From an uncultured Thermoleophilia bacterium (lineage in GTDB: Bacteria; Actinomycetota; Thermoleophilia; UBA2241), in the NCBI GenBank assembly GCA_963715985.1, contig CAVQSP010000003.1, positions 55,679 to 119,678 on the forward strand: a stretch of DNA of 64,000 nt, read 5' to 3'. Below the pieces are notes generated by a model. The model was not told where the DNA came from, did not search any database, and was given only the letters and a program-made list of their open reading frames with translations. Shown here one piece after another: positions 1 to 62,484 of the stretch. A program made the translations under genes and the position numbers. Every line of letters starts with the position of its first letter. Position 1 is the first letter of the stretch.

Positions 1-780
1 TGGGCCGGCGAGGTCCTCGGCGTGCCGGTGGTCGACCACTGGTGGCAGACCGAGACCGGCTGGGCGATCTGCGCCAACTGCCGGGGCCTCGAGGAGCTGC
101 CCATGAAGGCGGGCTCGCCGACAAGGCCGGTGCCGGGCTTCGACCTCGTGGTGCTGGATGCGTCCGGCGAGCCGCTGGAGCCGCCGGCGGAAGGCACCCT
201 GGCCTTGCGCCTGCCCTTGCCCCCCGGCGCGCTGCCGACGCTGTGGCACAACGACGAGGGCTTCGTGACCACCTATCTGGCGCCGTTCCCCGGCTACTAC
301 TTCACCGGCGACAGCGGCAGCATCGACGCGGACGGCTACGTCTTCGTCATGGGTCGCGTCGACGACATCATCAACGTCGCCGGTCACCGGCTTTCGACGG
401 GGCGCATGGAGGAGGTCCTCGCCGCCCATCCTGACGTCGCCGAGTGCGCCGTGGTCGGTGCTGCCGACGACCTCAAGGGTCAGATCCCGCTGGGGCTCGT
501 GGTGCTCAAGGAGGGAGCCGCCCGCGAGCCCGAGGATGTCACCGCCGAGCTCGTGCGTATGGTGCGCGAGCAGGTCGGGCCGGTGGCTGCCTTCAAGCGC
601 GCGCTGGTCGTCCAGCGTCTGCCCAAGACGCGCTCCGGCAAGATCCTGCGCAGCGCCATCCGCAAGCTCGCCGACGGCGTCGAGTTCGCGACGCCGGCGA
701 CCATCGAGGACGCCTCCGTCATCGAGGACCTGCGGATCGCCTTGGGTCATGACCAGCGCACGCAATCGCCGACCGGCTGA
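1..780 (+). CDS. prpE: Propionyl-/acetyl-CoA synthetase (AMP-forming), 5' end outside window
   Basis: Frame open from base 1; DHWWQTETG, YFTGD, GRVDDIINVAGHRLSTG and LPKTRSGKILR motifs. Confidence 0.8.
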   Translation, partial: WAGEVLGVPVVDHWWQTETGWAICANCRGLEELPMKAGSPTRPVPGFDLVVLDASGEPLEPPAEGTLALRLPLPPGALPTLWHNDEGFVTTYLAPFPGYYFTGDSGSIDADGYVFVMGRVDDIINVAGHRLSTGRMEEVLAAHPDVAECAVVGAADDLKGQIPLGLVVLKEGAAREPEDVTAELVRMVREQVGPVAAFKRALVVQRLPKTRSGKILRSAIRKLADGVEFATPATIEDASVIEDLRIALGHDQRTQSPTG

Positions 781-830
781 CAGGCACGAGCCCGGCCCCC
801 TCACGGGCCCCCGAGGAAGGTAGGACAGCA

Positions 831-2303
831 GTGAAACGCAATCTCCATGCCGGCCGCCGCCGCAGCGGCGGCCTGCGCCTCGACGTCTTCACCGACGACG
901 AGCTCTCCGACATCCATCTGGCGACGCTGGACGTGCTCGAGCGCACCGGGGTCGGCGTCGAGAGCGAGGAGGCGCAGGAGATCTTCGCCGGGGCCGGCGC
1001 CCGCGTGCAGAGCGACGGGATCGTCAAGATCCCCGGCCACGTCGTCGAGGAGGCGATCGCCAGCACTCCGTCGCGGCTCGTCTGCTACGGGCGCGACCCC
1101 AAGCACGACATCGTGCTCGAGGACGGGCGCGTCGGCTTCACCAACTTCGGCGAGGGCATCCAGGTCATCGATCCCTACACCGGCGAGCTGCGCCAGACCG
1201 GCAAGCAGGACGTCGCCGACTGCTCGCGGATCATCGACGCACTGCCCGAGATCGACGTCATCGAGCGGCCGCTGGGGGCGCACGACGTGCCGGAGGCCAC
1301 CGGTCCGCTTCACAACGCCGACGCCATCATGACCAACTGCTCGAAGCACGCCTTCATCGGCCCCCTGACCGGCTACCTCGCGAGCCGCATGCGCGAGATG
1401 GCAGCCGCCATCGCCGGCGGCGCCGAGAAGCTGCGCGAGCGGCCGATCCTCTCGTACGTGATCTGTCCGGTGGCGCCGCTCGGGATGATCCGCGACGTCT
1501 GCGACATCATCATCGACGGCGCCCGCAACCACGTGCCTATCACGCCGGTCTCGATCGTCATGGCCGGCGGCTCCTCGCCCATGAACCTGGCGGGCGCCGT
1601 GGTCACGACCAACGCCGAGATCCTGGGCTGCCTGACGCTGGCCCAGCTGACCCGCAAGGGGACGCCGGTCGTGTACGGAAGCTCATCGTCCTCGATGGAC
1701 CTCCGCTACGCCTCCGCCTCCGTGGGCAGCCCCGAGTGCGGCCTCATCAACGCCGCCATCGCCTGTATGGCGCGCGCCTACCTCCTGCCCAGCTGGGTCG
1801 CGGGGCAGTAGGGCGACTCCAAAGTGGTGGATGCCCAGTCCGGCCACGAGAAGACCCTCACCGGTCTGCTGACGGCGTTGGCAGGTGCCAACCTCATCTA
1901 CGGTGCGGGGATGCTCGAGAGCGGCATGACCATCGATTACGGCCAGCTCGTCATGGACGCCGAGTTCGCGCGTCTCATCAAGTACACGGTCGCCGGCGTG
2001 CCGGTCAGCGACGAGACGCTCTCGCTCGACGTGATCAACGACGTCGGCCCCTTCCACGACTTCCTCAGCCACGCCGACACCCTGCGCCACATGCGCACCC
2101 AGAGCCAGCCCACGCTCATCGACCGCCGCGTCCGCGAGGAGTGGAGCGCCGACGGTTCGACGACCATCCACGAGCGTGCCACGGCCCGCGCCCGCGAGAT
2201 CCTCGAGACCCACGTGCCCACGCCGCTGCCCGAGGGCGCCGCCGCCGAGATGGCCGCCATCATCGCCGACGCAGAGCGGCACCTGGGGGTGACGAAAGCA
2301 TGA
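831..2303 (+). CDS. mttB: Trimethylamine methyltransferase MttB, predicted pyrrolysine-containing (in-frame TAG 1809-1811), copy 1
   Basis: ORFs 831-1811 and 1824-2303 share a frame and are separated only by TAG-GGC-GAC-TCC-AAA; the joined 490-aa product is colinear with the uninterrupted paralog at 7362; the context SWVAGQ*GDSKVVDAQSGHEKT matches the Pyl site of MttB. Confidence 0.92.
1698..2294 (+). repeat. 597-bp direct repeat, copy A (3' part of mttB copy 1)
   Basis: Reads identical by eye to 6731-7327 (offset 5033); includes the amber codon. Confidence 0.85.
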
Positions 2304-3692
2304 ACGACATGACGCACATCGAGCCCGACCCTGCTCGGGAGCAGCGCATCCGCGACCTCGACCGCGAGTACGTCCTGCACTCCTGGTCCGTGCAGTCGCA
2401 GATCAGGCCGCTGCCTGTGGCCGGCGCCGACGGGCGCTACTTCTGGGACTACGAGGGCAAGCGCTATCTCGACTTCTCGTCTCAGCTCGTCAACGTCAAC
2501 ATCGGGCATCAGCACGCCAAGGTGGTCGAGGCGATCGTGGAGCAGGCGCGCACGCTCTGCACGATCGCGCCCTCCGTGGCGAACGAGAAGCGCTCGGAGC
2601 TCGCCCGGCTGCTGGCCGAAGTCACGCCGGGCAACCTCAAAGCGTCCTTCTTCACCAACGGCGGCGCGGAGGCCAACGAGAACGCCATCAAGCTCGCCCG
2701 CTGGTACACGGGCAGGCAGAAGATCATCGCCCGCTACCGCTCGTACCACGGGGCCACGGCCGGCGCCATCGCGCTGACCGGCGACCCCCGTCGCTGGCCC
2801 GCCGAGCCGAGCATCCCGGGCGTGGTGCGCATGTTCGACCCCTACACCTACCGCTGCTCGGCCGGGCGACGGGGCGAGACCGTGGCCGAGCACGTGGCCG
2901 CCTGCCCCGTGTGCGCGGGCGGCCCTCACCTGGAGGAGATCCTCCAGTACGAGGGGCCGCACACGGTGGCCGCGGTGATCCTCGAAACGGTCACCGGCAC
3001 CAACGGCATCATCGTCCCGCCGGACGGTTACCTGCAGTCGATGCGCGAGGTGTGCGACCGCCACGGCGTCCTGCTCATCCTCGACGAGGTCATGGCCGGC
3101 TTCGGGCGCACCGGCACGCTGGTTCGCCTGCGACCACTGGGACGTCATGCCCGACATCATGACGGTAGCCAAGGGCATCAACTCAGGCTACGTACCGCTC
3201 GGGGCGATGGTCGTCAGCGAGCCCATCGCCGAGTGGCTGCAGGACAAGTACCTCGCCGGCGGTCTCACGTACAGCGGGCACCCGCTGGCCTGTGCCTCGG
3301 CCGTGGCCTCCATCGAGGCGTTTCGTGAGGAGGGCATCGTCGAGAACGCCGCGGCGATGGGCGACGTCCTGGCGGTCGAGACGGCGGCGCTGGCCGCCCG
3401 GCATCCGTCGGTCGGTGAAGTGCGCGGCCTGGGCCTCTTCTGGGGTCTCGAGCTGGTGCGCGACCGGGAGACGCGCGAGCCCCTGGTGCCCTTCAACGCT
3501 GCCGGCGACGCAGCCGCGCCGATGGCGCGCCTGGGGAAGGCGGCCATGGAGCGTGGCCTCCTCCTGATGACTCACTTCAACGTCCTCGTGATCTGCCCGC
3601 CTCTCACCATCACGCGCGAAGAGCTCGCGGAGGGTCTGGCCGTGATAGACGAGGTTCTCACGCTCTCCGACCTGGAGTGCGCCCAGCCATGA
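2300..3692 (+). CDS. Class III PLP aminotransferase (omega-amino acid type); one frameshift near 3118
   Basis: YLDFSSQL, FTNGGAEANENA, SYHGAT, LILDEVMAGFGRTG, then PDIMTVAKGINSGY in a second frame; ATG overlaps the mttB stop (ATGA). Confidence 0.85.
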
Positions 3693-3756: not shown

Positions 3757-5256
3757 ATGAGCGTCGCACCCCCTGTGACTTTCAACCTCCTGGAGCCGCC
3801 GAAGCAGCACTACGGCGTGCTGCGCAACTTCATCGGTGGCAAGTGGGTGGACGTCGAGACCGACCGCGTCGTCGACGTGGACGACCCCGCAAGCGGCAAG
3901 GTCATCGCCCAGGTCCCCATCAGCACCACAGACCAGGTCAACGACGCCATCCAGGCAGCCCAGGACGGCTACCAGACCTGGCGCCGGACGCCCCCGGGGG
4001 ACCGCGGCCGCTTCATGTTCGAGATCCGTGCGGCGATGCAGCGGCACGCGGAGGAGCTGTCCCGCCTGGTCACTCAAGAGAACGGCAAGGTCATCGCCGA
4101 GGGCCGCGGCGAGGCTATGCGGACGATCGAAGCGGTCGAGACCGCCGCCGCCATCACGAGCCTCATGGGCGGCTATCAGCTCGAGGACGGCGCCGCCCGC
4201 AACATCGACGAGATGGTCGTGCGCCAGCCGCTCGGCGTCTGCGCCTGCATCACGCCGTTCAACTTCCCGATCATGATGACCGGCTTCTGGTGGCCTTACG
4301 CCATAGCCGCCGGCAACACCTTCGTGGTGAATCAGTCGAAACAAACGCCTATCACCATCACGCGCGTCTTCGAGATCATCGAGGAAGTGGGCCTTCCCGC
4401 CGGCGTCATGAACCTCGTGCAGGGCGACCGCACCGCCTCCGCGGCCTTCATGGACTCTCCGCAGATCAAGGCGGTCGGCTTCATCGGTTCGACCCCGGTC
4501 GCCAAGGAGATCTACCGCCGGGCCGGCGAGACCGGCAAGCGCTGCGTGGCCAACGGCGGCGCCAAGAACTTCGCCGTGTTCATGCCGGACGCCGACGTCG
4601 ACCGCAACATGGGCAACCTGATCACGAGCTTCTTCGGCTGCACGGGTCAGCGCTGCCTGGCCACCGCGGTGGTGCTGGCGGTCGGCGACGTCTACGACGA
4701 GCTCGTCGAGAAGTTCGTGGCCGCGACGCGGGCACTCAAGGTCGGCCCCGGGCTCGACGAGAGCGTCCACATCGGCCCCGTCATCTCGGCAGCGGCAAAC
4801 GCCCGCATCCGCGACTACATCCAGAGCGGCATCGATCAAGGCGCCGAGCTTCTGGTGGACGGGCGCGACGTCGAAGTTCCGGGCTATGAGGGCGGCCACT
4901 ATGTCGGGCCCACCATCTTCGACAACTGCACCCCGGACATGACGATCTGTCAGGACGAGATATTCGGCCCCGTGGCGGCGATCGTGCGCGTCAAGGACCT
5001 CGACGAGGCGCTCGCCATCACCAACGCCTCCCCTTACGGCAATCAGGCCGTGATCTACACGAGCAACGGGGGCCATGCGCGCCGCTTCTGGTACGAGGTC
5101 GAGGCCGGAAACATCGGCGTGAACATCGGCGTGGCCGCTCCGGTGGCGTATTACCCGTTCGCCGGCATGAAGGACTCACACTACGGCAACGGCTACGCGA
5201 TGCGCGATTCGTTCGACCTGTTCACCGAGAAGAAAGTCGTCATCACCCGCTGGTAG
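3757..5256 (+). CDS. mmsA: CoA-acylating (methyl)malonate-semialdehyde dehydrogenase
   Basis: ITPFNFP, FIGSTPVA, GGAKN, FGCTGQRCLA, EIFGPV and C-terminal KVVITRW; ends in TAG. Confidence 0.8.
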   Translation: MSVAPPVTFNLLEPPKQHYGVLRNFIGGKWVDVETDRVVDVDDPASGKVIAQVPISTTDQVNDAIQAAQDGYQTWRRTPPGDRGRFMFEIRAAMQRHAEELSRLVTQENGKVIAEGRGEAMRTIEAVETAAAITSLMGGYQLEDGAARNIDEMVVRQPLGVCACITPFNFPIMMTGFWWPYAIAAGNTFVVNQSKQTPITITRVFEIIEEVGLPAGVMNLVQGDRTASAAFMDSPQIKAVGFIGSTPVAKEIYRRAGETGKRCVANGGAKNFAVFMPDADVDRNMGNLITSFFGCTGQRCLATAVVLAVGDVYDELVEKFVAATRALKVGPGLDESVHIGPVISAAANARIRDYIQSGIDQGAELLVDGRDVEVPGYEGGHYVGPTIFDNCTPDMTICQDEIFGPVAAIVRVKDLDEALAITNASPYGNQAVIYTSNGGHARRFWYEVEAGNIGVNIGVAAPVAYYPFAGMKDSHYGNGYAMRDSFDLFTEKKVVITRW

Positions 5257-5313: not shown

Positions 5314-5670
5314 ATGGACAAGGACGCGATCCTCATCAAGAGCGGCGACGTCGCCCCCATCGTGCCGCCGAAGCACAGGAACACGGACACCTGGGTCATG
5401 GTGCGTCCGGCCACGACGGGCAACACGCAGTGCGAGTTCTTCGTCACGGAGATGCGGCAGGGCGGCGGCGCCGACTGGGACACCCACCCGGGCTGCGAGC
5501 ACATCTACTTCGTGATGGCCGGCCGCGCCAAGATGTGGGTGGAGGAAGAAGAGTTCGATCTGGAGCCCGGTGACTGTCTCCTGATGCGCGAGGGCGTCCG
5601 CCACAAGGTCGATGTGGTCGGCAGCGAGACCTTTCGCATCGGGGTGGTCTTCGCGCCGGGGCGCGTGTGA
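5314..5670 (+). CDS. Cupin-domain protein
   Basis: THPGCEHIYFVMAG…LEPGD…GVRH cupin motifs; GGAGGAG RBS upstream. Confidence 0.8.
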   Translation: MDKDAILIKSGDVAPIVPPKHRNTDTWVMVRPATTGNTQCEFFVTEMRQGGGADWDTHPGCEHIYFVMAGRAKMWVEEEEFDLEPGDCLLMREGVRHKVDVVGSETFRIGVVFAPGRV

Positions 5671-5863: not shown

Positions 5864-7336
5864 GTGAAACGCAATCTCCATGCCGGCCGCCGCCGCAGCG
5901 GCGGCCTGCGCCTCGACGTGTTCACCGACGACGAGCTCTCCGACATCCATCTCGGCACCCTCGACGTGCTCGAGCGCACCGGGGTCTACGTCGAGAGCGA
6001 GGAGGCCCAGGAGATCTTCGCCGGGGCCGGCGCCCGCGTCGGCGCGGACGGGGTCGTGAGGATCCCCGGCCACGTCGTCGAGGAGGCGATCGCCAGCACG
6101 CCCTCGCGGCTCGTCTGCTACGGCCGCGACCCCAAGCACGACGTCGTGCTCGAGGACGGGCGCGTGGGCTTCACCAACTTCGGCGAGGGCATCAACGTCG
6201 TCGACCCCTACACCGGCGAGCTGCGCCAGACCGTGAAGCAGGACGTCGCCGACTGCTCGCGGATCATCGACGCACTGCCCGAGATCGACGTCATCGAGCG
6301 GCCTCTGGGGGCGCACGACGTGCCCCAGGAGACGCAGCCTCTGCACAACGCCGAGGCGATCCTCACAAGCTGCTCGAAGCACGCCTTCATCGGCCCCATG
6401 ACCGGCTACCTCGCGAGCCGCATGCGCGAGATGGCGGCCGCCATCGCCGGCGGCGCCGAGAAGCTGCGCGAGCGGCCGATCCTCTCGTACATCACGTGTC
6501 CCATCAGCCCCCTCAAGATGGTGCAGGACGTCTGCGACATCGTCATGGAGGGCGCCCGCTCCGGCGTTCCCGTCAACGTCGTGTCCATGGCCATGGCCGG
6601 GGCGTCGTCCCCGGTGAACCTGGCCGGGACGTGCGTGTCACACAACGCCGAAGTGCTCTCCTGCCTCACGCTCGCCCAGCTCACGCAGAAGGGCGCGCCC
6701 ATGGTCTACGGCAGTTCGACCACGGGCATCGACCTCCGCTACGCCTCCGCCTCCGTGGGCAGCCCCGAGTGCGGCCTCATCAACGCCGCCATCGCCTGTA
6801 TGGCGCGCGCCTACCTCCTGCCCAGCTGGGTCGCGGGGCAGTAGGGCGACTCCAAAGTGGTGGATGCCCAGTCCGGCCACGAGAAGACCCTCACCGGTCT
6901 GCTGACGGCGTTGGCAGGTGCCAACCTCATCTACGGTGCGGGGATGCTCGAGAGCGGCATGACCATCGATTACGGCCAGCTCGTCATGGACGCCGAGTTC
7001 GCGCGTCTCATCAAGTACACGGTCGCCGGCGTGCCGGTCAGCGACGAGACGCTCTCGCTCGACGTGATCAACGACGTCGGCCCCTTCCACGACTTCCTCA
7101 GCCACGCCGACACCCTGCGCCACATGCGCACCCAGAGCCAGCCCACGCTCATCGACCGCCGCGTCCGCGAGGAGTGGAGCGCCGACGGTTCGACGACCAT
7201 CCACGAGCGTGCCACGGCCCGCGCCCGCGAGATCCTCGAGACCCACGTGCCCACGCCGCTGCCCGAGGGCGCCGCCGCCGAGATGGCCGCCATCATCGCC
7301 GACGCAGAGCGGCACCTGGGGGTGACGGGGACATGA
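5864..7336 (+). CDS. mttB: Trimethylamine methyltransferase MttB, predicted pyrrolysine-containing (in-frame TAG 6842-6844), copy 2
   Basis: ORFs 5864-6844 and 6857-7336 are in frame across one TAG; canonical SMAMAG-SSP, HNAEVL and YGSSTT motifs. Confidence 0.93.
6731..7327 (+). repeat. 597-bp direct repeat, copy B (3' part of mttB copy 2)
   Basis: Reads identical by eye to 1698-2294. Confidence 0.85.
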
Positions 7337-7361
7337 CAGGGCGCCGCGGGAGGCAGGAGAC

Positions 7362-8828
7362 GTGAGGCGCAACGCCGCCACGGAGCGCCGGCCTCTCGTC
7401 GGCGTGAGCATGCAGGTGCTGAGCCAGGACGGCATCGACGACATCCACCTCGCGACGCTCGAGGTCCTGGCGCAGGCAGGAGTGTTCGTCGAATCCGACG
7501 ATGCCCTGGATGTGCTGGCCGACGGCGGCTGCCGGGTGGACAAGGCGACGAAGATGGTGCGCATACCGCCCCACGTCGTCGAGGACGCGGTTCGCTCGGC
7601 GCCCCCGACGCTCGTCCTGCACGGACGAGACCGCGCACGCGACGTGGTCGTCGAGCGGGGGCGGGGTGTCTTCACGAGCTTCGGCGAGGGCATCTTCGTC
7701 ATCGACCCCTTCACCGGCGAGCGCCGCGAGCCGCGCAAGGATGATGTCGCGGCCTCCGCCGCCGCGGTCGATGCCCTCGATGAGCTCGGCATCTGCAACC
7801 GTGCGCTCGGCGCCCACGACGTCCCCCAGGCGGTCGCCGCCCTGCATACGGCCGACGCGATCCTGCGCAACACGACCAAGCACGTCTTTCTCGGCCCGCA
7901 GCGCGGCTTCCTCGCGGAGAGTATCGTGGGTCTGCAGGCGGTCATCCTGGGGTCCGCGGACGCCGTCCGCGAGCGTCCCCTGGTCACCTTCACCGCGTGC
8001 CCCGTGAGCCCACTCAAGCTGGCCCGTGACTGCTGCGAGGTCATCCTGGTGGCCGCTCGCAGCGGTGTCGGCGTCAACGTGGCCTCCATGGCCATGGCCG
8101 GCGGCTCATCGCCGATCACACTCGCCGGCACGCTGGTGACGCACAATGCCGAGGTGCTGGCCGGCATCACGCTCGCCCAGCTCGCCGAGCGGGGCGCGCC
8201 GGTGATCTACGGCAGCGTGAGCACCGGCATGGACCTGCGCCTGGCGTCGGCGAGCGTCGGCTCACCCGAGCTCGCCCTCATCACCGCCGCGGTGGCGCAG
8301 CTGGCCCAGCACTACCGCCTGCCGAGCTTCGTCGCCGGCGGCCTCGGCGACAGCAAGCTCCCCGATGCGCAGTCCGGGCACGAGAAGACGCTGACCGCCA
8401 CATTCGCGGCGCTGGCAGGCGCGAACGTGATCGCCGGCGCCGGCATCATGGAGTCGGGGCTCACCTTCGACTTCGGCCAGCTGGTCATGGACGCCGAGTT
8501 CGTCGGCATGATCGGGCACTGCGCGGCCGGCATCCGCGTCGACGACGAGACGCTGGCCGTCGACGACATCTGCGCCGTCGGCTCGTTCGGCGACTACCTC
8601 AGTCTCGAGGCGACGATGCACCACATGCGCGAGCAGAGCCAGCCGCGTCACATCGACCGCCGCGTGCGGGAGGACTGGCTGGCGCTGGGCGGCACCGACC
8701 TCCATCAGCGTGCCCTGGCCGAAGCGCGGCGCATCCTCCGAGAGTACCGGCCGGAGCCGCTCCCCGACGACATACAGGCGCAGATGACGAGCCTGGTGAC
8801 GGAGACGGAGACCCGCCGTGGGCTGTGA
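7362..8828 (+). CDS. mttB: MttB-superfamily methyltransferase, non-pyrrolysine (Leu at the Pyl site)
   Basis: Uninterrupted 488 aa; SFVAGG-L-GDSKLPDAQSGHEKT with CTC at 8343-8345. Confidence 0.9.
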   Translation: MRRNAATERRPLVGVSMQVLSQDGIDDIHLATLEVLAQAGVFVESDDALDVLADGGCRVDKATKMVRIPPHVVEDAVRSAPPTLVLHGRDRARDVVVERGRGVFTSFGEGIFVIDPFTGERREPRKDDVAASAAAVDALDELGICNRALGAHDVPQAVAALHTADAILRNTTKHVFLGPQRGFLAESIVGLQAVILGSADAVRERPLVTFTACPVSPLKLARDCCEVILVAARSGVGVNVASMAMAGGSSPITLAGTLVTHNAEVLAGITLAQLAERGAPVIYGSVSTGMDLRLASASVGSPELALITAAVAQLAQHYRLPSFVAGGLGDSKLPDAQSGHEKTLTATFAALAGANVIAGAGIMESGLTFDFGQLVMDAEFVGMIGHCAAGIRVDDETLAVDDICAVGSFGDYLSLEATMHHMREQSQPRHIDRRVREDWLALGGTDLHQRALAEARRILREYRPEPLPDDIQAQMTSLVTETETRRGL

Positions 8829-27763: not shown

Positions 27764-29206
27764 CTACTGCACCAGCTTCTCGTCAGCACGCCGCACAACG
27801 GCGTCCAGATCGCGCTTGACGTCGTCAGGCAGGTCGAGCGGCGCAAGAGTGCCGCGCAGCTCCCGGTACTTCTCCACGGCGCGGTCGTACAGGTCCGGCT
27901 CACCCGCCGTCTGCCACGTGTCCAGCGGGTCGGCGATGAAGATGTCCTGGCGCACGGCCTCACGGCAGTGCTTGAGCGTGTGCTTGGCGCGGAGGTAGTG
28001 GCCGCCGGCGCCGGCGTCGAGGATCGCCTGCACGCCCAGCGTGTCGTCGTCCACCTGCACGCCGGCCACGTAGCGGCGCAGCAGCGCCGTCATGCGGTCG
28101 TCGATGATCAGCTGCACGGGGCTGGCCAGCGTGGAGCCGCCGAGGCGGCCGGCGCCGTAGGCCACGTCCGCGCCGGCCATCGTGTTCAGCGTCGCGTTCA
28201 CGCTCTTGGCCAGCAGGGTCTGGCCGTCCGAGACGTACGAGTCGGTCCAGAGCGAGGCCATGAGCACCGGTACGTGGAAGGCCTCGCGCATGAACTGCGC
28301 GGCCGCGGCCTGCGCGAGCGCCGTCTCCACCGAGGCGATGTTCGAGTTGCCCGTCGCCATGTCCAGCGTCGAGTTGTAGCCACAGGCGAGGATCGGGTGG
28401 CCCGGCGCCAGCACCTGCGTCATCACGATCATGGCCAGCACCTCGACGCCCACCAGCAGAGCGCCGCCCGCCGGGGTGATGGGGCCCGTGCCGCCGCCGA
28501 GAACAAGGCTGCAGGGAGCGACCGGGATGCCGTACTTGCAGCACAGCGTGATGGTCTCGAGGTCCATGTCCTTGAAGACCAGCGGCGAGAGCGACGTCGG
28601 GTCGAACCAGGCGAGCGGCCGGTCGCGCAGGGCCTCCTCGCTGCCGGCGCGCGCCAGCAGCAGCTCGAAGAGGTAGGGAACGCTCTCCATGCAGTAGGCG
28701 AGCAGGTTCAGGGGCTTGGACGTGTTCTGCAGCTGCACGGCCAGGGCGTGGATGTCGGCCGTCTCGGGCGGCACGTCCATCGGCGTCTGGATGGCGCAGG
28801 CGTCGATGTTGGGCAGTGCCTCGATCAGCTGGCACCACTCGGCGAAGAGCTCTTCGGTGTTGTCGCGGAACGCACCCGTCTCGGGGTCGAGGTAGAGCAT
28901 GGACTGGATGCAGCTGGACGTGTAGAAGGAGCGGTCCGGATGCGGCAGGGTGAGGTCGTGGGCCGCGTCTCCCCCCTTGGCGACGAACTCGCGCGGAGCC
29001 GAGGCGAGGGCGGACTCGATGAGGTCCGCCGGGAACTTGACCATGCGCGTGGCGTCGTCAACCTCGCAGCCGGCGTCGCGCAGCCACCCAAGTGCGCCCT
29101 CGTGGTCCACCTTCACTCCGTGCCCGGAGAGGATCTCCACGCACTTCTCGTAGACGGTGGCGACTTCAGTGCTGGTCAGCGGCTGGATGCTGAGGGTGCC
29201 GGACAT
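27764..29206 (-). CDS. mttB: MttB-superfamily methyltransferase, non-pyrrolysine
   Basis: PTSLSPL, GGTGPITPAG, LDMATG, ASLWTDSYVSDGQ (Trp at the Pyl-equivalent site), GAGGHYL. Confidence 0.85.
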   Translation of the reverse strand: MSGTLSIQPLTSTEVATVYEKCVEILSGHGVKVDHEGALGWLRDAGCEVDDATRMVKFPADLIESALASAPREFVAKGGDAAHDLTLPHPDRSFYTSSCIQSMLYLDPETGAFRDNTEELFAEWCQLIEALPNIDACAIQTPMDVPPETADIHALAVQLQNTSKPLNLLAYCMESVPYLFELLLARAGSEEALRDRPLAWFDPTSLSPLVFKDMDLETITLCCKYGIPVAPCSLVLGGGTGPITPAGGALLVGVEVLAMIVMTQVLAPGHPILACGYNSTLDMATGNSNIASVETALAQAAAAQFMREAFHVPVLMASLWTDSYVSDGQTLLAKSVNATLNTMAGADVAYGAGRLGGSTLASPVQLIIDDRMTALLRRYVAGVQVDDDTLGVQAILDAGAGGHYLRAKHTLKHCREAVRQDIFIADPLDTWQTAGEPDLYDRAVEKYRELRGTLAPLDLPDDVKRDLDAVVRRADEKLVQ

Positions 29207-29347
29207 GGGGGACCTCCTCGGAGGAGTGAAGACGACAAGAGCGGCGGCCGCCGGCCGACCTCAGGGGGGCGGGTCTCGCCAAGCGGCCGCCGCCGCGCGC
29301 CAAGACTAGGCGCCGCCGCCTGGGCGTTCAAGGCTCTGGACCCGCCG

Positions 29348-29363
29348 GTCCCACATGCTGGAG
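29348..29363. promoter_or_regulatory. Candidate operator GTCCCACATGCTGGAG
   Basis: 13/16 match to palindrome GTCCCACATGTGGGAC; about 140 nt upstream of the mttB starting at 29206. Confidence 0.5.
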
Positions 29364-29449
29364 ACGAGAAGGGGGCGGGATCACCTTGCGGAGACCCGCG
29401 GGACGCCCTCAGTGACCGGCCGGAATGGTGCTGGTGGCCGGGGCGCACG

Positions 29450-31024
29450 TCAGTCCGCCAGCGCCACCAGCAGGTCGCCGCCTTTGACCAGCTCCAGAGC
29501 CGCGGCGATGTCCACGTCCAGAGGCCGGTCTTCCTCCAGCACCGGCACGCGTTCGCGCAGCACGGCGCGAGCACGCGCCGTGCGTGACCCCTGCGGTCGG
29601 CCGCGCAGGTCCACACCCTGGCAGGCGCAGAGAAGCTCGATGGCCAGCACGGTCTGGGCGTTCTCGATGATCTCGCGGGCGTGGCGGGCGGCGATGGCGC
29701 CCATGCTGACGTGGTCCTCCTGGTTGGCCGACGTCGGGATCGAATCCACGCTGGCCGGGTGGGCGAGCACCTTGTTCTCGCTGACCAGCGCCGCGGCCGT
29801 GTACTGGGCCACCATGAAGCCGTCGTTCAGGCCCCCGTCACGCGTCAGGAAGCCGGGAAGGCCGGCGCTCAAGGCCGGGTTCACCAGCCGTTCGGTGCGG
29901 CGTTCCGAGATGCTCGCCAGCTCGGCCACGGCGATGCCGAGGAAGTCCATGGCGAGCGCGAGCGGCTGGCCGTGGAAGTTGCCGCCGCTGAGGACGTCGC
30001 CGGCGATCGGCGACGCGGCGTCAGCAGCGCCGGCTTCGATGCCCACGGCGTCGTCAACGGGGAACACCAGTGGGTTGTCGGTGACGGAGCCGGTCTCGGT
30101 CTCCACGACGCCGCGCACGTAGGCGACGGCGTCGCGCGAGGCGCCGTGCACCTGCGGCATGCAGCGGAGGGCGTAGGCGTCCTGGACGCGCCCGTGGGAC
30201 GCCTGCTGCACGGCTGGACTGTCCGCCAGCAGCTTGCGCAGGTTGGCGGCCGTCGTGATCTGGCCGGGGTGCGGACGCGCCTCGTGCAGGCGTGCGTCGA
30301 AGGCGTCGGGAACGGCCTCGAGGGCCTCGGCCGTGAGGGCGCCGATCACGTCGGCCGTGTCGGCGAGGCGCGCGGCATCGCAGACGGCCAGCGCCCCCAG
30401 CGCCGCCATGGCCTGCGTGCCGTTGCAGAGCGAGAGGCCCTCCTTGGCGGCGAGCCGGACGGGCTCGATGCCCGCCGCCTGCAGAGCCTCCTTCCCGTAC
30501 ATAGTACGGTCGCTGGTCTCCGCTGCATGCGCCAAGGTCGCGCGGCCGCCGCCCATGAGCACCAGGGCGATGTGAGCGAGTGGGGCGAGGTCGCCGGAGG
30601 CGCCCACCGAGCCTTTGCTCGGCACCACCGGCAGCACGCCCCGCTCGAGCATCGCCACGAGCGTGTCCACGATGACCGGCCGCACTCCCGAGAGTCCGGC
30701 CGCCAGGGAGTTGGCGCGCAGCAGCAGCATGGCGCGCACGACCTCGGCCGGGAACGGCTCGCCGACGCCGGTGCAGCAGCTGGTCACGAGGTGCTCCTGC
30801 AGCCGCTCGACGTCGGCGTCGGCGATGCGCACGTCGGCGAGCCGACCGAAGCCCGTGTTCACGCCGTACACCGGGTCGCCGCGCCGCAGCTTGTCCTCGA
30901 TCACGGCGCGGCTGCGCGCCATGCTCGAGTACGCCTCGAGCGCGACCGTCACGGAAGCGCCTTCGCGCGCGACGCGCGCGACGTCCTCCACGCTCAGGCT
31001 GCTGCCGTCTATGCGCACGGTCAT
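29450..31024 (-). CDS. hutH: MIO-dependent histidine ammonia-lyase homologue with altered specificity residue
   Basis: YGVNTGFG, GSVGASGDLAPLAH, KEGLSLCNGT, VQDAYALRC, SANQEDHVSMG; LVTSC where histidases have SH. Confidence 0.85.
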   Translation of the reverse strand: MTVRIDGSSLSVEDVARVAREGASVTVALEAYSSMARSRAVIEDKLRRGDPVYGVNTGFGRLADVRIADADVERLQEHLVTSCCTGVGEPFPAEVVRAMLLLRANSLAAGLSGVRPVIVDTLVAMLERGVLPVVPSKGSVGASGDLAPLAHIALVLMGGGRATLAHAAETSDRTMYGKEALQAAGIEPVRLAAKEGLSLCNGTQAMAALGALAVCDAARLADTADVIGALTAEALEAVPDAFDARLHEARPHPGQITTAANLRKLLADSPAVQQASHGRVQDAYALRCMPQVHGASRDAVAYVRGVVETETGSVTDNPLVFPVDDAVGIEAGAADAASPIAGDVLSGGNFHGQPLALAMDFLGIAVAELASISERRTERLVNPALSAGLPGFLTRDGGLNDGFMVAQYTAAALVSENKVLAHPASVDSIPTSANQEDHVSMGAIAARHAREIIENAQTVLAIELLCACQGVDLRGRPQGSRTARARAVLRERVPVLEEDRPLDVDIAAALELVKGGDLLVALAD

Positions 31025-31114
31025 CCCGTCGCTCCGCTACGCCCAACCACCGAGGGGCGCGGGGACTGTCCGCCCCCGACCGAGCGCCGGTCAGACCCGG
31101 GACCCACCCGGGAT

Positions 31115-31200
31115 GAGGTTCGGATCGGCGCTTTCAATGGACCGTACGTCTGACAGCATCGTTGCTTGAACACGCGATGCGGACCATGCCTTCCGCCGGC
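31115..31200 (+). repeat. Dispersed palindromic intergenic element, copy A
   Basis: TTTCAA(31132)-N5-CGTACGT-N16-TTGAA-CACGCGATGCGGACCATGCC. Confidence 0.75.
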
Positions 31201-31253
31201 GACCTGGCCACGCCGACGCTGCCCCAGCGACGCCCCTTGGGCGACCCCCCACC

Positions 31254-32138
31254 TCACACGTTCATCTCGATGGTCTGCGTCATCGAGAAGTCGTGGATCT
31301 GCAGGTAGTACCGCACGACCTCCTCGAGGGCGCCGAGCGGCACCGGACCCACGAGCTCGGCGCTCGCCACTGTCACGCCGTAGCGGGCGGCCTCGGCCTT
31401 GATGGCCTCCATCACACGAGGGATGGGCGTCTGCGTGTAGTTGGTCAGATTCATGGAGACCTGCGTCATGCCGGTGCCGGTGAGGTCCAGGCCGATGGCG
31501 CGCACGTAGCGAAAGCCGCCGTTGAGGTTGCGGACTGCGTGGGCGATCTTCGTCGCGATGTCGAGCTCGTCGGTACGCAGGTTCACGTTGAAGGCCACGA
31601 GGGGGAAGCGCGCCGCGACCTGCGTGGCTCCCGACTTGGGCACAAACTCCGCCGGTCCTTCATCCGGTCTCCAGAACGGATCCGCGAGCTTCTCCGGCAG
31701 CGCCTCGTATTCGCCCTTGCGCACGTCGACGAGGTTCCTGCGCTCGGGGCGCGTGGCCGCGTCCTCGTAGTAATACACCGGCACACCGAGGCCGCCCAGG
31801 AAGGCGCCGAACTCGCGGGCGACGGCCACGGCCTCCTCTGTGGTCGTCTCCCCCACGGGGATGAACGGCACGGTGTCGAGGGCGCCGTGGCGCGGGTGGC
31901 TGCCGCTGTGCGTGGTCATGTCGACCATCTCGAGGACGGCGGCGGCGAACTTCTTGGTCGCCTCGAGCACGGCCTGCGGCTCGCCGAGGTACGAGTACAC
32001 GGAGCGGTTGTGGTCCTTGTCCGCGGAGAGGTCGATGAGCTTGACGCCGGGCTGCGCCTTGATGAGCTCGACGAGCTTGTCGACCTTGGCCTGGTCGCGG
32101 CCCTCGCTCACGTTGGGCACGCACATGAGGATCTTCAT
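31254..32138 (-). CDS. fctD: Glutamate formiminotransferase
   Basis: MCVPNVSEGRD, DKDHNRSV, HSGSHPRHGALD, LVAFNVNL, QVSMNL. Confidence 0.9.
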   Translation of the reverse strand: MKILMCVPNVSEGRDQAKVDKLVELIKAQPGVKLIDLSADKDHNRSVYSYLGEPQAVLEATKKFAAAVLEMVDMTTHSGSHPRHGALDTVPFIPVGETTTEEAVAVAREFGAFLGGLGVPVYYYEDAATRPERRNLVDVRKGEYEALPEKLADPFWRPDEGPAEFVPKSGATQVAARFPLVAFNVNLRTDELDIATKIAHAVRNLNGGFRYVRAIGLDLTGTGMTQVSMNLTNYTQTPIPRVMEAIKAEAARYGVTVASAELVGPVPLGALEEVVRYYLQIHDFSMTQTIEMNV

Positions 32139-32791
32139 GATGACTCCTTGGGGGGCGAGGCGGAGGCGGACGCCGGCGGAGCCTCCGCGCGGAGGCGCAG
32201 CTCCGCGGCTTCGGCGAGCAGGGCCCGGGCCTCCGGCACGTCGTCCATGCCGGCCACGTTGACGTCGATGTTGGCGGCGGCGCCGAGCACGCCGACCTCG
32301 GCGAGCCGCAGGGCCACCGCGAGATCTGAGGCGGCCGAGTCGTTGGAGCGGCCGCTGAGCTCGCGGCACAGGTCCAGCACCTTGGCGGCGCGGCGCGCGT
32401 TGTCGCGCGGCACCGTGGCGGCGGCGATGAGGGCGCCCTGGATGGCCGCCTGCCGCGCCGCCTTCTCGGCCTCGTCGCCCTTGGGCAGCGAGTACGCGGC
32501 CTTGATGAGCGAGTAGGCGGCCGCGTCGGCGGCGGCGCCCTCGGCGAGCGCGTCGCGCAGCTCCTCGGCCTCGGCCGCGCAGGCGCGGTAGCGCTCGTCG
32601 CCGAGCTCCAGGCCCTTGCCCACGGAGAGGCGGGCCACCATACCCATCAGGCCCGCCGCCATGGCGCCGGAGAGGGCGGCGGCGGAGCCGCCGCCCGTTG
32701 TGGCGTCGCCGGCGTCCAGGATGAGCGCCAGGACGCCGTGCAGCTCGTCGCTCACGTGCGGCCGTGCGCCGCCGTCGTCCTGCGCAGCCAT
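32135..32791 (-). CDS. fchA: Formiminotetrahydrofolate cyclodeaminase family protein
   Basis: TGGGSAAAL, MVARLSVGK, AYSLPK, AATVP, ASDL, NIDVN. Confidence 0.85.
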   Translation of the reverse strand: MAAQDDGGARPHVSDELHGVLALILDAGDATTGGGSAAALSGAMAAGLMGMVARLSVGKGLELGDERYRACAAEAEELRDALAEGAAADAAAYSLIKAAYSLPKGDEAEKAARQAAIQGALIAAATVPRDNARRAAKVLDLCRELSGRSNDSAASDLAVALRLAEVGVLGAAANIDVNVAGMDDVPEARALLAEAAELRLRAEAPPASASASPPKESS

Positions 32792-34071
32792 CAGTCGCCC
32801 GCCCGGTGGCGCTCGACGACCAGCTCGCCGCGCTTGTAGACGCGCTCCACCACGTTGCCTCCCAGCCTGTAGATGGCGTGCTCGTACTGCGGCACGTCCC
32901 AGATCTGCACGTCGGCAAGCTTACCCGCTGCCAGCACTCCTCGGTCATCGAGGGCGAGGGCGCGGGCGCCGCCGGCGGTGGCCGCCCACACGGCCTCCGC
33001 CGGGCTCATGCGGTAGAGCCGGCAGGCGAGCGCCATGACGAACTGCTGCGACTCTGCCCAGCAGCCGGGGCAGATGTCCGTGGCCAGGGCGAGCGTCATG
33101 CCGGCGGCGATGAGGGTGCGGGCGTCGAACGGGCGCGGGTGACGCACGGCGAAGTCGAGGGCAGGCATGATGACACCGACCACGCCGGCCGCAGCCATCT
33201 TCTCCATCACCTCGGGCGGCGTGAAGTTGAGGTGGTCGGCCGAGACCATGCGCATCTCGGCGGCCACATCGGTGCCGCCGATGTACGAGTAGGCGTCGGC
33301 GTGGATCTTGGGCTCCATGCCGGCGGCGCGGCACGCCTCCAGGATGCGCCGTGACTCCTCCGCCGTGTAGTAGCCGTCGTCGCACCACACGTCGGCGAAC
33401 TCGGCGAGACCCTCTTGCGCGATCAGAGGGGTCATCTCCTCACAGAGGATGTCGATGTAGCGGTCCCGCGCCACCTCGGGCGGGAAGCCGTGCGCCCCGA
33501 GGAACGTGGAGAGCACGTCGACCGGCGAGGCGGCGTCGAGCGCCCTGTTGACGCGCAGCAGCTCGAGCTCCGTCTCGGTGGCGAGGCCGTAGCCGCTCTT
33601 GCTCTCGACCGTGGTGGTGCCGGCGGCGAGCATCCCGCTGAGGCGCACCGCGGACTGGGCGAGAAGCTCCAGCGAGGTCGCCTCGCGCGTGCGCGACACC
33701 GTCTCCATGGGGCCGACGCCGATGCCGCGCGCGCGGATGGCGTCCATGTCGGAGGTCGTCATCTTGGCGGCGTACTCGTCCACGCGGGAGCCGCCGAACA
33801 CGAGGTGCGTGTGGCTGTCCACGAAGCCCGGCGCCACCACCTTGCCGCGCGCGTCCACGACCTCGGCGGCGGAGCAGTCCGCGGCCGCCTCGACGGCCGC
33901 GCGGCCGCCGGCCGCCAGGATGGTCTCGCCGGCGATGGCCAGCCAGCCGCCGGCGACGACGCCCGCGTCGTACTCGTCGCCGGCGCACGTGACCAGCTGC
34001 GCTGCGTCGGCGATCACCAGGTCGGCGCGCGGACGCCGGCCGCCACCAGCCGTCGTCTCGCCCTCAGACAT
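32791..34071 (-). CDS. hutI: Imidazolonepropionase-like amidohydrolase
   Basis: PGFVDSHTHLVFGGSR, GTTTVESKSGYGL, TFLGAH, KIHAD, SADHL, ALATD. Confidence 0.87.
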   Translation of the reverse strand: MSEGETTAGGGRRPRADLVIADAAQLVTCAGDEYDAGVVAGGWLAIAGETILAAGGRAAVEAAADCSAAEVVDARGKVVAPGFVDSHTHLVFGGSRVDEYAAKMTTSDMDAIRARGIGVGPMETVSRTREATSLELLAQSAVRLSGMLAAGTTTVESKSGYGLATETELELLRVNRALDAASPVDVLSTFLGAHGFPPEVARDRYIDILCEEMTPLIAQEGLAEFADVWCDDGYYTAEESRRILEACRAAGMEPKIHADAYSYIGGTDVAAEMRMVSADHLNFTPPEVMEKMAAAGVVGVIMPALDFAVRHPRPFDARTLIAAGMTLALATDICPGCWAESQQFVMALACRLYRMSPAEAVWAATAGGARALALDDRGVLAAGKLADVQIWDVPQYEHAIYRLGGNVVERVYKRGELVVERHRAGD

Positions 34072-34103
34072 CGTCACCCTCGCCGTTGACGATCGCTGGG
34101 CCG

Positions 34104-35825: not shown

Positions 35826-35952
35826 TGGTCTCAATCCCTTTCTGAGCGTCGGCGTTCGCGCGGGCCCGCAGAGAGGGCGCGGCCACGGGGGCGCGAGCGG
35901 GCACGCCTACACTGATGGGGCCGCGCCCACGGCGCAACGAGGCATCGCCGTG

Positions 35953-41233: not shown

Positions 41234-41668
41234 TCAGGCCTCGCCACCCGCCGCAGACTTCTCCACGGTGATCGTGCCTGCGGTCGCATCCACGACGACG
41301 TGGTCGCCGTTGGCCACCGCCTCGTAGAAGCCGGGCTCGACCTCGTCCACCAGCGGGATCTCCATGGCGATGATCGTGGACACCAGCACAGGCTCCGGCC
41401 GCTCGATGATCACGGCCTTGGGCGCGACGCCGTTGATGATGAGCCGGTAGAGGCCGTCGGCCTGCACCACGGAGCTGCCCTTGCCGGTGGGCATGATGAG
41501 GACCCTGCCGGCCACGCTCTGACAGTCGAGCGCGTGGCCCTTCTCGATCACGGTGCCCGTCCGCGGGTCGCAGAGGGCGAAGCAGAGCGCGTCCCTGGAG
41601 AGCAGGGCCGCGCCTTCGCCGGCACCTTCCGAGATGCAGCGGCAGGAGAACTCGAGTGTGCCGGCCAT
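41234..41668 (-). CDS. Aconitase X small (swivel, DUF126) subunit
   Basis: GTVIEKGH…SVAGRVLIMPTGKGSSV…APKA. Confidence 0.85.
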   Translation of the reverse strand: MAGTLEFSCRCISEGAGEGAALLSRDALCFALCDPRTGTVIEKGHALDCQSVAGRVLIMPTGKGSSVVQADGLYRLIINGVAPKAVIIERPEPVLVSTIIAMEIPLVDEVEPGFYEAVANGDHVVVDATAGTITVEKSAAGGEA

Positions 41669-50147: not shown

Positions 50148-50229
50148 GTGGTGGTCCTTTCGTGTCTGCCGATCCGGCGCATCCAACTATGCGTCCTGGC
50201 GCCGGCGTCACAAGCGCGACACGGCCGTG

Positions 50230-54854: not shown

Positions 54855-54961
54855 CGAAAGTCCCCCGTTCTTGCGATTACGTCCGATGTCGGGAGCGGCA
54901 CCAGACCGGCACCGTCCCATGCTGCCACGGCCCCAGATGTGGTCAACGTAGCAGCGTCCCG

Positions 54962-54990
54962 GTCCACGATGTGGGACCGTCATGTGGGAA
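54962..54990. promoter_or_regulatory. Candidate operator GTCCACGATGTGGGAC plus adjacent half-site ATGTGGGAA
   Basis: 13/16 match to consensus; about 110 nt upstream of the binding-protein gene starting at 54854. Confidence 0.5.
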
Positions 54991-55052
54991 GCGGGCGTTC
55001 GGGCGGCCTCGAGCCGGAGCACGTCCGACCCTCAGGTCGGCCGGAGCCCGCC

Positions 55053-62461: not shown

Positions 62462-62484
62462 CCGGGAGGGTCGCTCCCGGTGCG

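What the first reader, a model, noticed from the sequence alone, without database searches (positions are those of the whole stretch)
1480..1700. Pyl-MttB copy 1 is locally re-tuned in its core, suggesting a substrate other than trimethylamine
Seen: the two Pyl paralogs are near-identical at the N-terminus and identical at the C-terminus but differ densely in one block. Copy 2 has SMAMAG, SHNAEVL and YGSSTT; copy 1 has SIVMAG, TTNAEIL and YGSSSS. Copy 2 and the Leu paralog keep the usual MttB motifs. Inference: copy 1 may be a neofunctionalised pyrrolysine enzyme for a different methylated amine, which would widen known Pyl chemistry.
Basis: partly seen in the sequence, partly recalled or inferred. 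Interest (0 to 1): 0.7.

Follow-up and report, generated by a model that had tools for sequence, protein, structure and literature searches.

The report
Pyrrolysine methyltransferase paralog with remodelled pocket
One of two neighbouring pyrrolysine-containing MttB methyltransferase genes keeps a conserved, altered stretch around its active site while gene conversion erases every other difference between the two, which suggests, without proving, that it acts on a methylated amine other than trimethylamine.

Summary
Copy 1 (window 831-2303) and copy 2 (5864-7336) both have TAG at the pyrrolysine codon. They differ at 137 of 1473 bases, and 84 of these lie in one 240-base island (window 1458-1697). 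The next 597 bases are identical.

A related Thermoleophilia genome shows the same pattern independently. The island is old (dS about 1.2, against 0.09 outside it).

Copy 1 belongs to a conserved clade, G1 (10 protein clusters; found in 3 of 89 genomes of the family). G1 has fixed S215A, M242I, A243V, H260T, T286S, T287S and A288S at positions that 75-76 other Pyl-type homologs keep at 95-100%.

M242 corresponds to Met249 of M. barkeri MttB, the pocket residue that moves to admit trimethylamine. The other changes lie just after barrel strands next to the pyrrolysine strand. Among G1 orthologs the island is under strong purifying selection (omega 0.07-0.18).

In all three genomes G1 sits with an omega-aminotransferase and a methylmalonate-semialdehyde-type dehydrogenase, not with mtbB.

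A different substrate is plausible (about 0.5) but untested. A trimethylamine isozyme or a change of corrinoid partner remains a serious rival.

The parts
831..2303 (+). Copy 1 (G1-type Pyl-MttB), 490 codons with in-frame TAG at codon 327
   Evidence: PF06253 at 296 bits. E 1e-108 to M. barkeri MttB 7XCM.
1809..1811 (+). TAG codon read as pyrrolysine in copy 1
   Evidence: Aligns with Pyl334 of 7XCL. It shares its column with the TAG of 8 other MttB paralogs of the genome. The Pyl machinery is present.
1458..1697 (+). Major island of divergence in copy 1 (gene nt 628-867, codons 210-289). It holds A215, T238, P239, I242, V243, T260 and S286-S288.
   Evidence: 84 of the 137 differences lie here. 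The codons were checked. An independent metagenome contig covers 1428-1727 with 1 mismatch.
1271..1336 (+). Minor island of divergence (gene nt 441-506)
   Evidence: Differences cluster here in both genomes.
1698..2294 (+). 597-base tract identical to copy 2 (a gene-conversion tract)
   Evidence: The same tract is identical between the two copies of G134, yet differs between the two genomes at 22 of the 540 positions compared (gene nt 901-1440).
5864..7336 (+). Copy 2 (G2-type Pyl-MttB with the canonical motifs), TAG at 6842-6844
6491..6730 (+). Major island in copy 2 (the counterpart of 1458-1697)
   Evidence: An independent contig covers 6461-6760 with 0 mismatches.
7362..8828 (+). Non-Pyl MttB paralog with Leu at the Pyl position
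1..780 (+). 3' part of a propionate/acetate-CoA-ligase-like gene upstream of copy 1
   Evidence: AMP-binding_C. The intact ortholog in G134 scores best to propionate--CoA ligase, below that family's cut-off.
2306..3692 (+). Class III (omega) aminotransferase, frameshifted near 3100-3121 in this assembly
   Evidence: The G134 ortholog is intact and scores NF004718 at 624 bits. Contigs of four runs lack one base at 3116-3121.
3757..5256 (+). Aldehyde dehydrogenase of the CoA-acylating methylmalonate-semialdehyde dehydrogenase subfamily
   Evidence: PF00171. The G134 ortholog scores TIGR01722 at 494.7 bits, above the 448.5 cut-off.
5314..5670 (+). Small cupin protein
   Evidence: It is conserved at this place in G134 and G313.

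Best explanation
Copy 1 is a working pyrrolysine-dependent methylamine:corrinoid methyltransferase of the MttB family. It belongs to a small conserved clade, G1.

In G1 one wall of the substrate and corrinoid cavity has been rebuilt. The changes sit in the loops after barrel strands 4, 5 and 6 and in the start of the following helix. The pyrrolysine, Gly107 and Tyr357 catalytic set is kept.

The enzyme most likely activates a methylated amine other than trimethylamine, or a bulkier tertiary or secondary amine. Pyrrolysine would form an adduct with the amine, and a methyl group would pass to a corrinoid protein. Neighbouring genes (omega-aminotransferase, CoA-acylating semialdehyde dehydrogenase, acyl-CoA ligase) would then break down the demethylated carbon skeleton.

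Gene conversion with the co-resident paralog repeatedly homogenises the flanks. The specificity-bearing island stays distinct.

Shown: the mosaic pattern, the clade, the fixed substitutions, their place in the published structure description, purifying selection, and synteny.

Inferred: that the changes alter substrate choice, and what the substrate is.
For: 1. Concerted evolution around a protected island.
- The two copies of this genome have 0 differences in gene nt 901-1440. So do the two copies of G134. The two genomes differ there at 22 positions.
- In nt 601-900 the paralogs differ at 84-87 positions and the orthologs at only 16-20.
- Island dS is 1.18-1.42, against 0.03-0.09 outside.

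2. Tree discordance.
- The N-terminal tree interleaves G1 with G2, P0016 and P0026/32 in supported pairs.
- The core tree makes G1 one clade (98/100) on a stem of 0.23.

3. Fixed departures at conserved positions.
- G1 (10 of 10 sequences) has A215, I242, V243, T260, S286, S287 and S288.
- 76 other Pyl-type homologs hold S, M, A, H, T, T, A at 96-100%.
- G1 departs at 8 of 51 conserved core columns and G2 at 1 of 51.

4. Position in the structure.
- I242 aligns with Met249 of M. barkeri MttB. The structure paper says this residue moves aside for trimethylamine when MttC binds (PMC9842639, sections read).
- The paper's strand list and corrinoid contacts (supplement 1) place residues 222, 249/250 and 293-295 one to four residues after strands 214-218, 244-248 and 287-291. 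That is the same rim that carries Cys219, Pyl334 and Tyr364.

5. The same positions differ in the glycine betaine enzyme MtgB, which has SLVMAG, LQNAEVL and YGSTSAL.

6. The island of G1 orthologs has omega 0.07-0.18, lower than the rest of the gene at 0.15-0.36.

7. Gene neighbourhood.
- The order ligase - G1 - aminotransferase - MMSDH-type dehydrogenase - cupin - Leu-MttB is kept in G000, G134 and G313. G2 is missing in G313.
- No mtbB lies on contig C3, whereas four other Pyl-MttB genes lie within about 6 kb of an mtbB.
- A canonical mttB with an adjacent corrinoid gene exists elsewhere, on C14.
Against: - No biochemical data exist.
- dN/dS is below 1 everywhere, and copy 1's excess of unique changes is not significant (18 versus 8 at best, p 0.076).
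- I could not measure distances.
- Sequence divergence could by itself block conversion in the island.
- The three genomes with G1 belong to one genus, so shared synteny is weak evidence of functional linkage.
- Copy 2, with a canonical pocket, sits in the same cluster, so the neighbourhood does not single out copy 1.
- In this window no corrinoid protein gene adjoins copy 1 (50-base gap).
- The Arg that binds the carboxylate of acidic substrates in MtgB aligns with Trp322 here. An acidic substrate bound in the MtgB manner is therefore unlikely.
Confidence: 0.5

Rival explanations
1. Copy 1 is still a trimethylamine methyltransferase. It is an isozyme whose rim changes tune kinetics, regulation, or the fit to a different cognate corrinoid protein or corrinoid form, not the choice of substrate.
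For: - Pyl, Gly107 and Tyr357 are all kept.
- The changes are conservative in type (M to I, A to V, T to S).
- Residue 215 lies between Cys219, which hydrogen-bonds the corrinoid, and Glu225, which makes a salt bridge to MttC, in the M. barkeri complex.
- Met249 faces the cobalt side.
- In G134 a corrinoid protein gene lies directly upstream of the G1 gene.
Against: - Cys212 is unchanged, and position 218 is not fixed within G1, so no clear partner-contact signature is seen.
- The genome already has a canonical mttB with an adjacent corrinoid gene, plus further Pyl-MttB genes beside mtbB.
- The changed positions are the ones that differ between the trimethylamine and glycine betaine enzymes.
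Confidence: 0.33
2. The island has no functional meaning. Two old paralogs drifted apart, and conversion tracts simply stop where homology is too low.
For: - The island boundary (nt 867/868) is the same in two genomes, as expected if mismatches end the tracts.
- dN/dS in the island is 0.22-0.27.
- The relative-rate test is not significant.
Against: - The island is the most conserved part of the family (51 of 100 columns at 95% or more). Only G1 departs there, at 8 columns against 1 for G2.
- The derived states are fixed in 10 of 10 G1 sequences.
- They evolve under omega 0.07-0.18.
Confidence: 0.12
3. Copy 1 is a decaying pseudogene, or the mosaic is an assembly or polishing artefact.
For: - The assembly has likely indel errors. 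The aminotransferase is frameshifted, and the urocanase, AcnX and one solute-binding gene appear split into two reading frames each.
- Completeness is 88.8% and contamination 7.3%.
Against: - The frame is intact for 490 codons, with its single stop being the TAG at the Pyl codon.
- The same mosaic appears in an independently assembled genome.
- Short-read contigs from other wetland runs carry each island with 0-1 mismatch and end at the island edges, as expected beside true repeats.
- Selection is purifying.
Confidence: 0.03

Closest known systems
Methanosarcina barkeri trimethylamine methyltransferase MttB (PDB 7XCL, 7XCM, 7XCN; PMC9842639)
   Same: - Full-length PF06253 TIM-barrel protein, E 1e-108 over residues 2-483.
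- TAG at the Pyl334 position.
- Gly110 and Tyr364 equivalents are kept.
- A high-confidence predicted fold (pLDDT 90.5).
   Different: - Met249 is Ile, Ala250 Val, His267 Thr, Thr293/294 Ser, Thr295 Ser and Ser222 Ala.
- Thr111 is Glu, as in all the bacterial relatives seen here.
- No adjacent mttC in this window.
- The neighbours are amine-skeleton catabolic genes.
Desulfitobacterium hafniense glycine betaine methyltransferase MtgB (PDB 2QNE, 9YCE; PMC13080624)
   Same: - Same superfamily and fold (E 5e-67).
- It shares Val at the Ala250 position and a branched aliphatic residue at the Met249 position (SLVMAG versus SIVMAG).
- It has Ser at the Thr293 position.
   Different: - MtgB has no pyrrolysine (Leu there).
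- MtgB binds its acidic quaternary amine with Arg312, His348, Tyr97 and Phe356. Copy 1 has Trp322, Tyr357, Glu108 and Gly365 at those places (paper sections read).
Copy 2 and the other Pyl-MttB paralogs of the same genome
   Same: - Same family, same Pyl codon, same host machinery.
- Copy 2 is identical to copy 1 over 597 bases.
   Different: They keep the canonical S222, M249, A250, H267, T293 and T294 set. Four of them lie within about 6 kb of an mtbB gene.
Concerted evolution of duplicated bacterial genes by gene conversion with protected divergent segments (general phenomenon, recalled and not checked here)
   Same: Flanks are homogenised within each genome, while a short segment keeps paralog-specific sequence across species.
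   Different: Here the protected segment coincides with part of the active-site rim of a pyrrolysine enzyme.

Membership tests
Pyl-dependent MttB (trimethylamine:corrinoid methyltransferase, PF06253, M. barkeri type) | Full-length MTTB domain / TIM-barrel fold | tested here: met
   PF06253 at 296 bits over residues 16-483. E 1e-108 to 7XCM. AF2 model pLDDT 90.5.
Pyl-dependent MttB (trimethylamine:corrinoid methyltransferase, PF06253, M. barkeri type) | In-frame UAG at the Pyl334 position, in a host with pylTSBCD | tested here: met
   TAG at codon 327 aligns with X334 of 7XCL. tRNA-Pyl, pylB, pylC, pylD and pylSc were found. pylSn was not looked for.
Pyl-dependent MttB (trimethylamine:corrinoid methyltransferase, PF06253, M. 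barkeri type) | Gly110 and Tyr364, reported as 100% conserved and needed for Pyl activation | tested here: met
   Gly107 and Tyr357. The conservation statement comes from PMC9842639.
Pyl-dependent MttB (trimethylamine:corrinoid methyltransferase, PF06253, M. barkeri type) | Canonical pocket-wall residues Ser222, Met249, Ala250, His267, Thr293, Thr294 | tested here: not met
   Copy 1 has Ala, Ile, Val, Thr, Ser, Ser. 76 other Pyl-type homologs keep the canonical residues at 97-100%. The role of Met249 comes from PMC9842639.
Pyl-dependent MttB (trimethylamine:corrinoid methyltransferase, PF06253, M. barkeri type) | Adjacent cognate corrinoid protein gene (mttC) | tested here: inconclusive
   None adjoins copy 1 in the window (50-base gap to the ligase gene). 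The nearest lies about 5 kb upstream of the window (L032 4239-4937). In G134 a corrinoid gene lies directly upstream of the G1 gene.
Pyl-dependent MttB (trimethylamine:corrinoid methyltransferase, PF06253, M. barkeri type) | [quoted passage not shown] | not testable with these tools
   Needs an enzyme assay.
Non-Pyl quaternary-amine methyltransferases of the MttB superfamily (MtgB type) | No pyrrolysine codon | tested here: not met
   TAG is present at codon 327.
Non-Pyl quaternary-amine methyltransferases of the MttB superfamily (MtgB type) | Arg312 (carboxylate binding) and the aromatic pair Tyr97/Phe356 | tested here: not met
   The aligned residues are Trp322, Glu108 and Gly365 (numbering worked out from the 9YCE alignment). 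Their roles come from PMC13080624.

The most novel reading that the evidence does not exclude
The cluster encodes a stepwise demethylation of one methylated amine by MttB-family enzymes alone. The Leu paralog would take the quaternary form. The canonical Pyl copy 2 and the remodelled Pyl copy 1 would take the tertiary and the secondary form (or a bulkier tertiary form). The freed primary amine would then be transaminated and oxidised to an acyl-CoA. If so, pyrrolysine chemistry in the MttB scaffold extends beyond trimethylamine to substituted amines, and the G1 island is its specificity module.
Probability: 0.15. Interest if true: 0.85.

Novelty: new variant of a known kind. Interest (0 to 1): 0.6.

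Why it matters
Every pyrrolysine-containing MttB is currently taken to be a trimethylamine methyltransferase. My full-text searches found no report of one acting on another amine.

A conserved Pyl-MttB clade that replaces the pocket residue Met249 and six other near-invariant residues is a concrete candidate for widening that chemistry. Its selection-protected island names the residues to swap in an experiment.

It also shows how gene conversion can hide an old functional split. The two genes look like a recent duplicate with a "re-tuned" patch. That matters for annotating the many MttB paralogs in wetland Thermoleophilia, and for methylamine and methane budgets.

Tried and rejected
- **Three-dimensional distances.** The AF2 model is not delivered as coordinates. 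A search of the structure paper's supplements for His267, Thr293 and the like found nothing, and one supplement is an image. Positions were therefore placed only from the paper's strand list and contact tables.
- **Relative-rate test on the 100-residue core.** Copy 1 has more unique changes than copy 2 against all 7 outgroups (10-18 versus 6-8), but none is significant (p 0.076-0.82).
- **Positive selection.** No window or segment of 50 codons or more has omega above 1; only the last ten codons, with 4 differences, score above 1. A branch-site model could not be run.
- **L072.** This 82% match turned out to be a frameshifted gene with a canonical core, not G1.
- **An MtgB-like acidic-substrate binding mode.** Rejected, because the Arg312 equivalent is Trp.
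- **Expression.** RNA-library contigs were laid. One 152-base contig of run X19 lies on 1397-1546 with 9 mismatches. Run X16 has contigs on copy 2's island and on the aminotransferase, dehydrogenase and cupin genes, but none on copy 1's island. These are contigs, may stem from relatives or from DNA, and show nothing about transcription of copy 1.
- A motif pattern matched nothing, and an anchor fell on the wrong NAE motif. They were redone, and the numbers are not used.
- **Literature.** The search for pyrrolysine with Thermoleophilia gave one irrelevant paper.

Full report
**What is there.**
- The window is 70% G+C and lies on contig C3 of a 4.35-Mb, 22-contig genome. The genome is 88.8% complete with 7.3% contamination.
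- Its closest public relatives are MAGs labelled Thermoleophilia.
- Reading TAG through gives two 490-codon MttB genes: copy 1 at 831-2303 and copy 2 at 5864-7336. Each has one TAG, at codon 327.
- A 488-codon paralog at 7362-8828 has Leu at that position.
- All three are full-length PF06253 proteins.
- Copy 1 matches M. barkeri MttB (7XCM/7XCL) at E 1e-108 over residues 2-483, and its TAG falls on Pyl334.

**Pyrrolysine use in this genome.**
- The genome has tRNA-Pyl(CUA) beside pylB, pylC and pylD, with pylSc 4 kb away.
- Nine of the MttB matches I examined carry TAG in the same alignment column.
- There are also about ten TAG-bearing MtbB genes and two TAG-bearing MtmB genes.
- Reading TAG as pyrrolysine is therefore well founded.

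**The observation.**
- The two genes differ at 137 of 1473 bases. Forty-nine differences lie in nt 1-627, 84 in nt 628-867 (window 1458-1697), none in nt 868-1464 (window 1698-2294), and 4 in the last codons.
- A difference-free run of 597 bases has a probability of about 5e-26 at the gene-wide rate.
- A second, small island lies at nt 441-506.

**How the pattern arose.**
- Synonymous divergence differs sharply by segment. It is 0 in the C-terminal tract, 0.19 in codons 1-200 and 0.74 in codons 201-300. It is 1.18 in the island proper against 0.09 outside.
- dN/dS is about 0.3 in all segments. The dense block is therefore old sequence, not a burst of replacement.
- A related genome (G134; locus L033) has the same two genes in the same order and spacing.
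- Its two copies also show 0 differences in nt 901-1440. Yet the two genomes differ there at 22 positions. In nt 601-900 the paralogs differ at 84-87 positions and the orthologs at 16-20.
- The flanks are therefore homogenised within each genome after the species split. This is gene conversion. The island is not converted, and its 3' edge (867/868) is the same in both genomes.
- Trees of database homologs agree. In the N-terminal tree, copy-1-type sequences pair with whatever paralog type shares their lineage (for example P0005 with P0015, P0009 with P0016, and P0019-21 with P0026/32, all supported).
- In the core tree the copy-1 type is one clade (98/100) on a long stem of 0.23.
- Short-read contigs from other wetland metagenomes carry each island (1428-1727 with 1 mismatch; 6461-6760 with none). 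They end at the island edges, as assemblers do beside true repeats. This argues against an assembly artefact.

**What is special about copy 1.**
- I compared 120 homologs from a search of 5.8 billion proteins. Most are 325-329 residues long, which I take to mean they were cut at the Pyl codon by gene callers.
- Nine clusters plus copy 1 form clade G1.
- All ten G1 sequences have A215, T238, P239, I242, V243, T260, S286, S287 and S288.
- At seven of these positions, 76 other Pyl-type homologs hold S, M, A, H, T, T, A at 96-100%. Copy 2's clade (8 sequences) holds the canonical residue at six of the seven.
- Fifty-one core columns are at least 95% conserved among 75 other Pyl-type sequences. G1 departs at 8 of them and G2 at 1.
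- In M. barkeri numbering (+7) the G1 changes are S222A, M249I, A250V, H267T, T293S, T294S and T295S.

**Where the changes sit.**
- The structure paper (PMC9842639; passages and sections 8 and 9 read; supplement 1) names Met249 as the residue that swings out of the pocket, when MttC binds, to make room for trimethylamine.
- Its strand list (85-87, 105-108, 180-182, 214-218, 244-248, 287-291, 328-331, 362-366) lets the other changes be placed. So do its corrinoid contacts (Thr111, Asp184, Cys219, Leu371, Gly372).
- The known functional residues sit one to six residues beyond the C-terminal ends of the barrel strands.
- Residues 222, 249/250 and 293-295 sit in the same places after the three strands that precede the pyrrolysine strand.
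- His267 lies in the first turns of the helix that follows.
- In my AF2 model (pLDDT 90.5) the block 241-250 has the lowest confidence inside the barrel, at 67. This fits a mobile loop.
- I could not obtain coordinates, so apart from Met249 these placements are inferences from topology.
- The same positions differ in the glycine betaine enzyme MtgB, which has SLVMAG, LQNAEVL and YGSTSAL. They therefore vary with substrate class in the superfamily.

**Selection.**
- Among G1 orthologs (this genome, G134, G313) the island has omega 0.07-0.18, against 0.15-0.36 for the rest of the gene. The derived state is tightly kept, so this is not decay.
- Copy 1's core has a higher dN than copy 2's to all six outgroup paralogs.
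- It also has more unique replacements against all seven outgroups, but the excess is not significant (18 versus 8 at best, p 0.076).

**Distribution and neighbourhood.**
- A G1-type core was found in 3 of 89 genomes of the family: G000, G134 at 97% identity and G313 at 81%. All three belong to one genus.
- In a class-wide sample of 301 genomes, no match other than G000 and G134 exceeded 68% identity.
- In all three genomes the order is: propionate/acetate-CoA-ligase-like gene, G1, class III aminotransferase (NF004718 at 624 bits), aldehyde dehydrogenase (TIGR01722 methylmalonate-semialdehyde subfamily, 494.7 bits against a cut-off of 448.5), cupin, then the Leu-type MttB.
- G134 adds a corrinoid protein gene directly before G1 and has G2 before the Leu paralog. 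G313 lacks G2.
- Contig C3 has no mtbB, whereas four other Pyl-MttB genes lie within about 6 kb of an mtbB.
- A canonical mttB next to a corrinoid gene lies on C14, beside MtbB and MtmB genes.
- The neighbourhood fits a methylated amine whose carbon skeleton is then transaminated and oxidised.
- This evidence is weak. The three genomes are close kin, and copy 2 shares the neighbourhood.
- The Arg that binds the carboxylate in MtgB and its characterised relatives (PMC13080624, Results part 1, section 7 and Discussion read) aligns with Trp322 here. This speaks against an acidic substrate held in that manner.

**Verdict.**
Its picture of a local re-tuning of a near-identical duplicate is replaced by old paralogs with converted flanks.
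- Whether the substrate differs from trimethylamine is open. I put about 0.5 on a different substrate range, 0.33 on a trimethylamine isozyme or a change of partner, 0.12 on no functional meaning, and 0.03 on artefact or decay.
- Full-text searches found no report of a Pyl-MttB acting on another amine, nor of MttB with beta-alanine betaine.
- Large bacterial sets of Pyl methyltransferases are known, for example in the Olavius delta-1 symbiont (PMC1976440, passages read).
- Earlier notes of this scan had already recorded the Pyl gene set and the Pyl methyltransferases of this genome on other contigs.

Noticed in passing
window 2306-3692: The class III aminotransferase reads in two frames that switch near 3100-3121. 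Contigs from four other runs lack one base at 3116, 3119 or 3121, and the G134 ortholog is intact. The frameshift is therefore probably an indel error of this assembly, or a strain difference.
   Followed up: partly
window 34064-35834, 41668-42885, 53926-55022: The urocanase, AcnX and one SBP_bac_5 gene each appear as two adjacent or overlapping reading frames. These may be further indel errors in the assembly.
   Followed up: no
G000:C3:52148-53561 (L032 about 6450-7874), 2-3 kb upstream of the window: A third related Pyl-MttB (about 78% identical to copies 1 and 2, canonical motifs) has its N-terminal part in another frame. It follows a non-Pyl MtmB homolog, a corrinoid protein and a diaminopimelate-decarboxylase-like gene. 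A TetR/BetI-type regulator lies between it and the ligase gene.
   Followed up: partly
whole genome G000: The complement of methylamine methyltransferase genes is very large. There are 89 PF06253 matches (about 45 near full length, 9 with TAG at the Pyl column), about 10 TAG-bearing MtbB, 2 TAG-bearing MtmB plus about 5 MtmB homologs without TAG, and 35 B12-binding domain matches. A tRNA-Sec is also present.
   Followed up: partly
window 27764-35834: A non-Pyl MttB gene (27764-29206, minus strand) lies next to histidine-utilisation genes: histidine ammonia-lyase, urocanase, an amidohydrolase and FTCD_C. Further non-Pyl MttB genes lie at 48729-50186, 50359-52428 and 62397-63932.
   Followed up: no
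protein P0016 (database homolog): P0016 is an intermediate. It has the canonical SMAM and SSTT motifs but the G1-like NTNAEIL. Its N-terminus pairs with the G1 member P0009 (100/97), and its core is sister to G1 (89/79). It may be a partner paralog partly converted inside the island.
   Followed up: no
window 1152-1154 and 6185-6187: The residue after the conserved Gly (M. barkeri Thr111, whose peptide NH binds the corrinoid) is Glu in copies 1 and 2 and in nearly all bacterial relatives aligned here (FGEG).
   Followed up: no
L111 10726-11379 (G134) versus window 781-830: G134 has a corrinoid protein gene between the ligase gene and the G1 gene. Its best NCBIfam hits are MtgC and MtbC types, all below their cut-offs. 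This window has only a 50-base gap at that place.
   Followed up: partly
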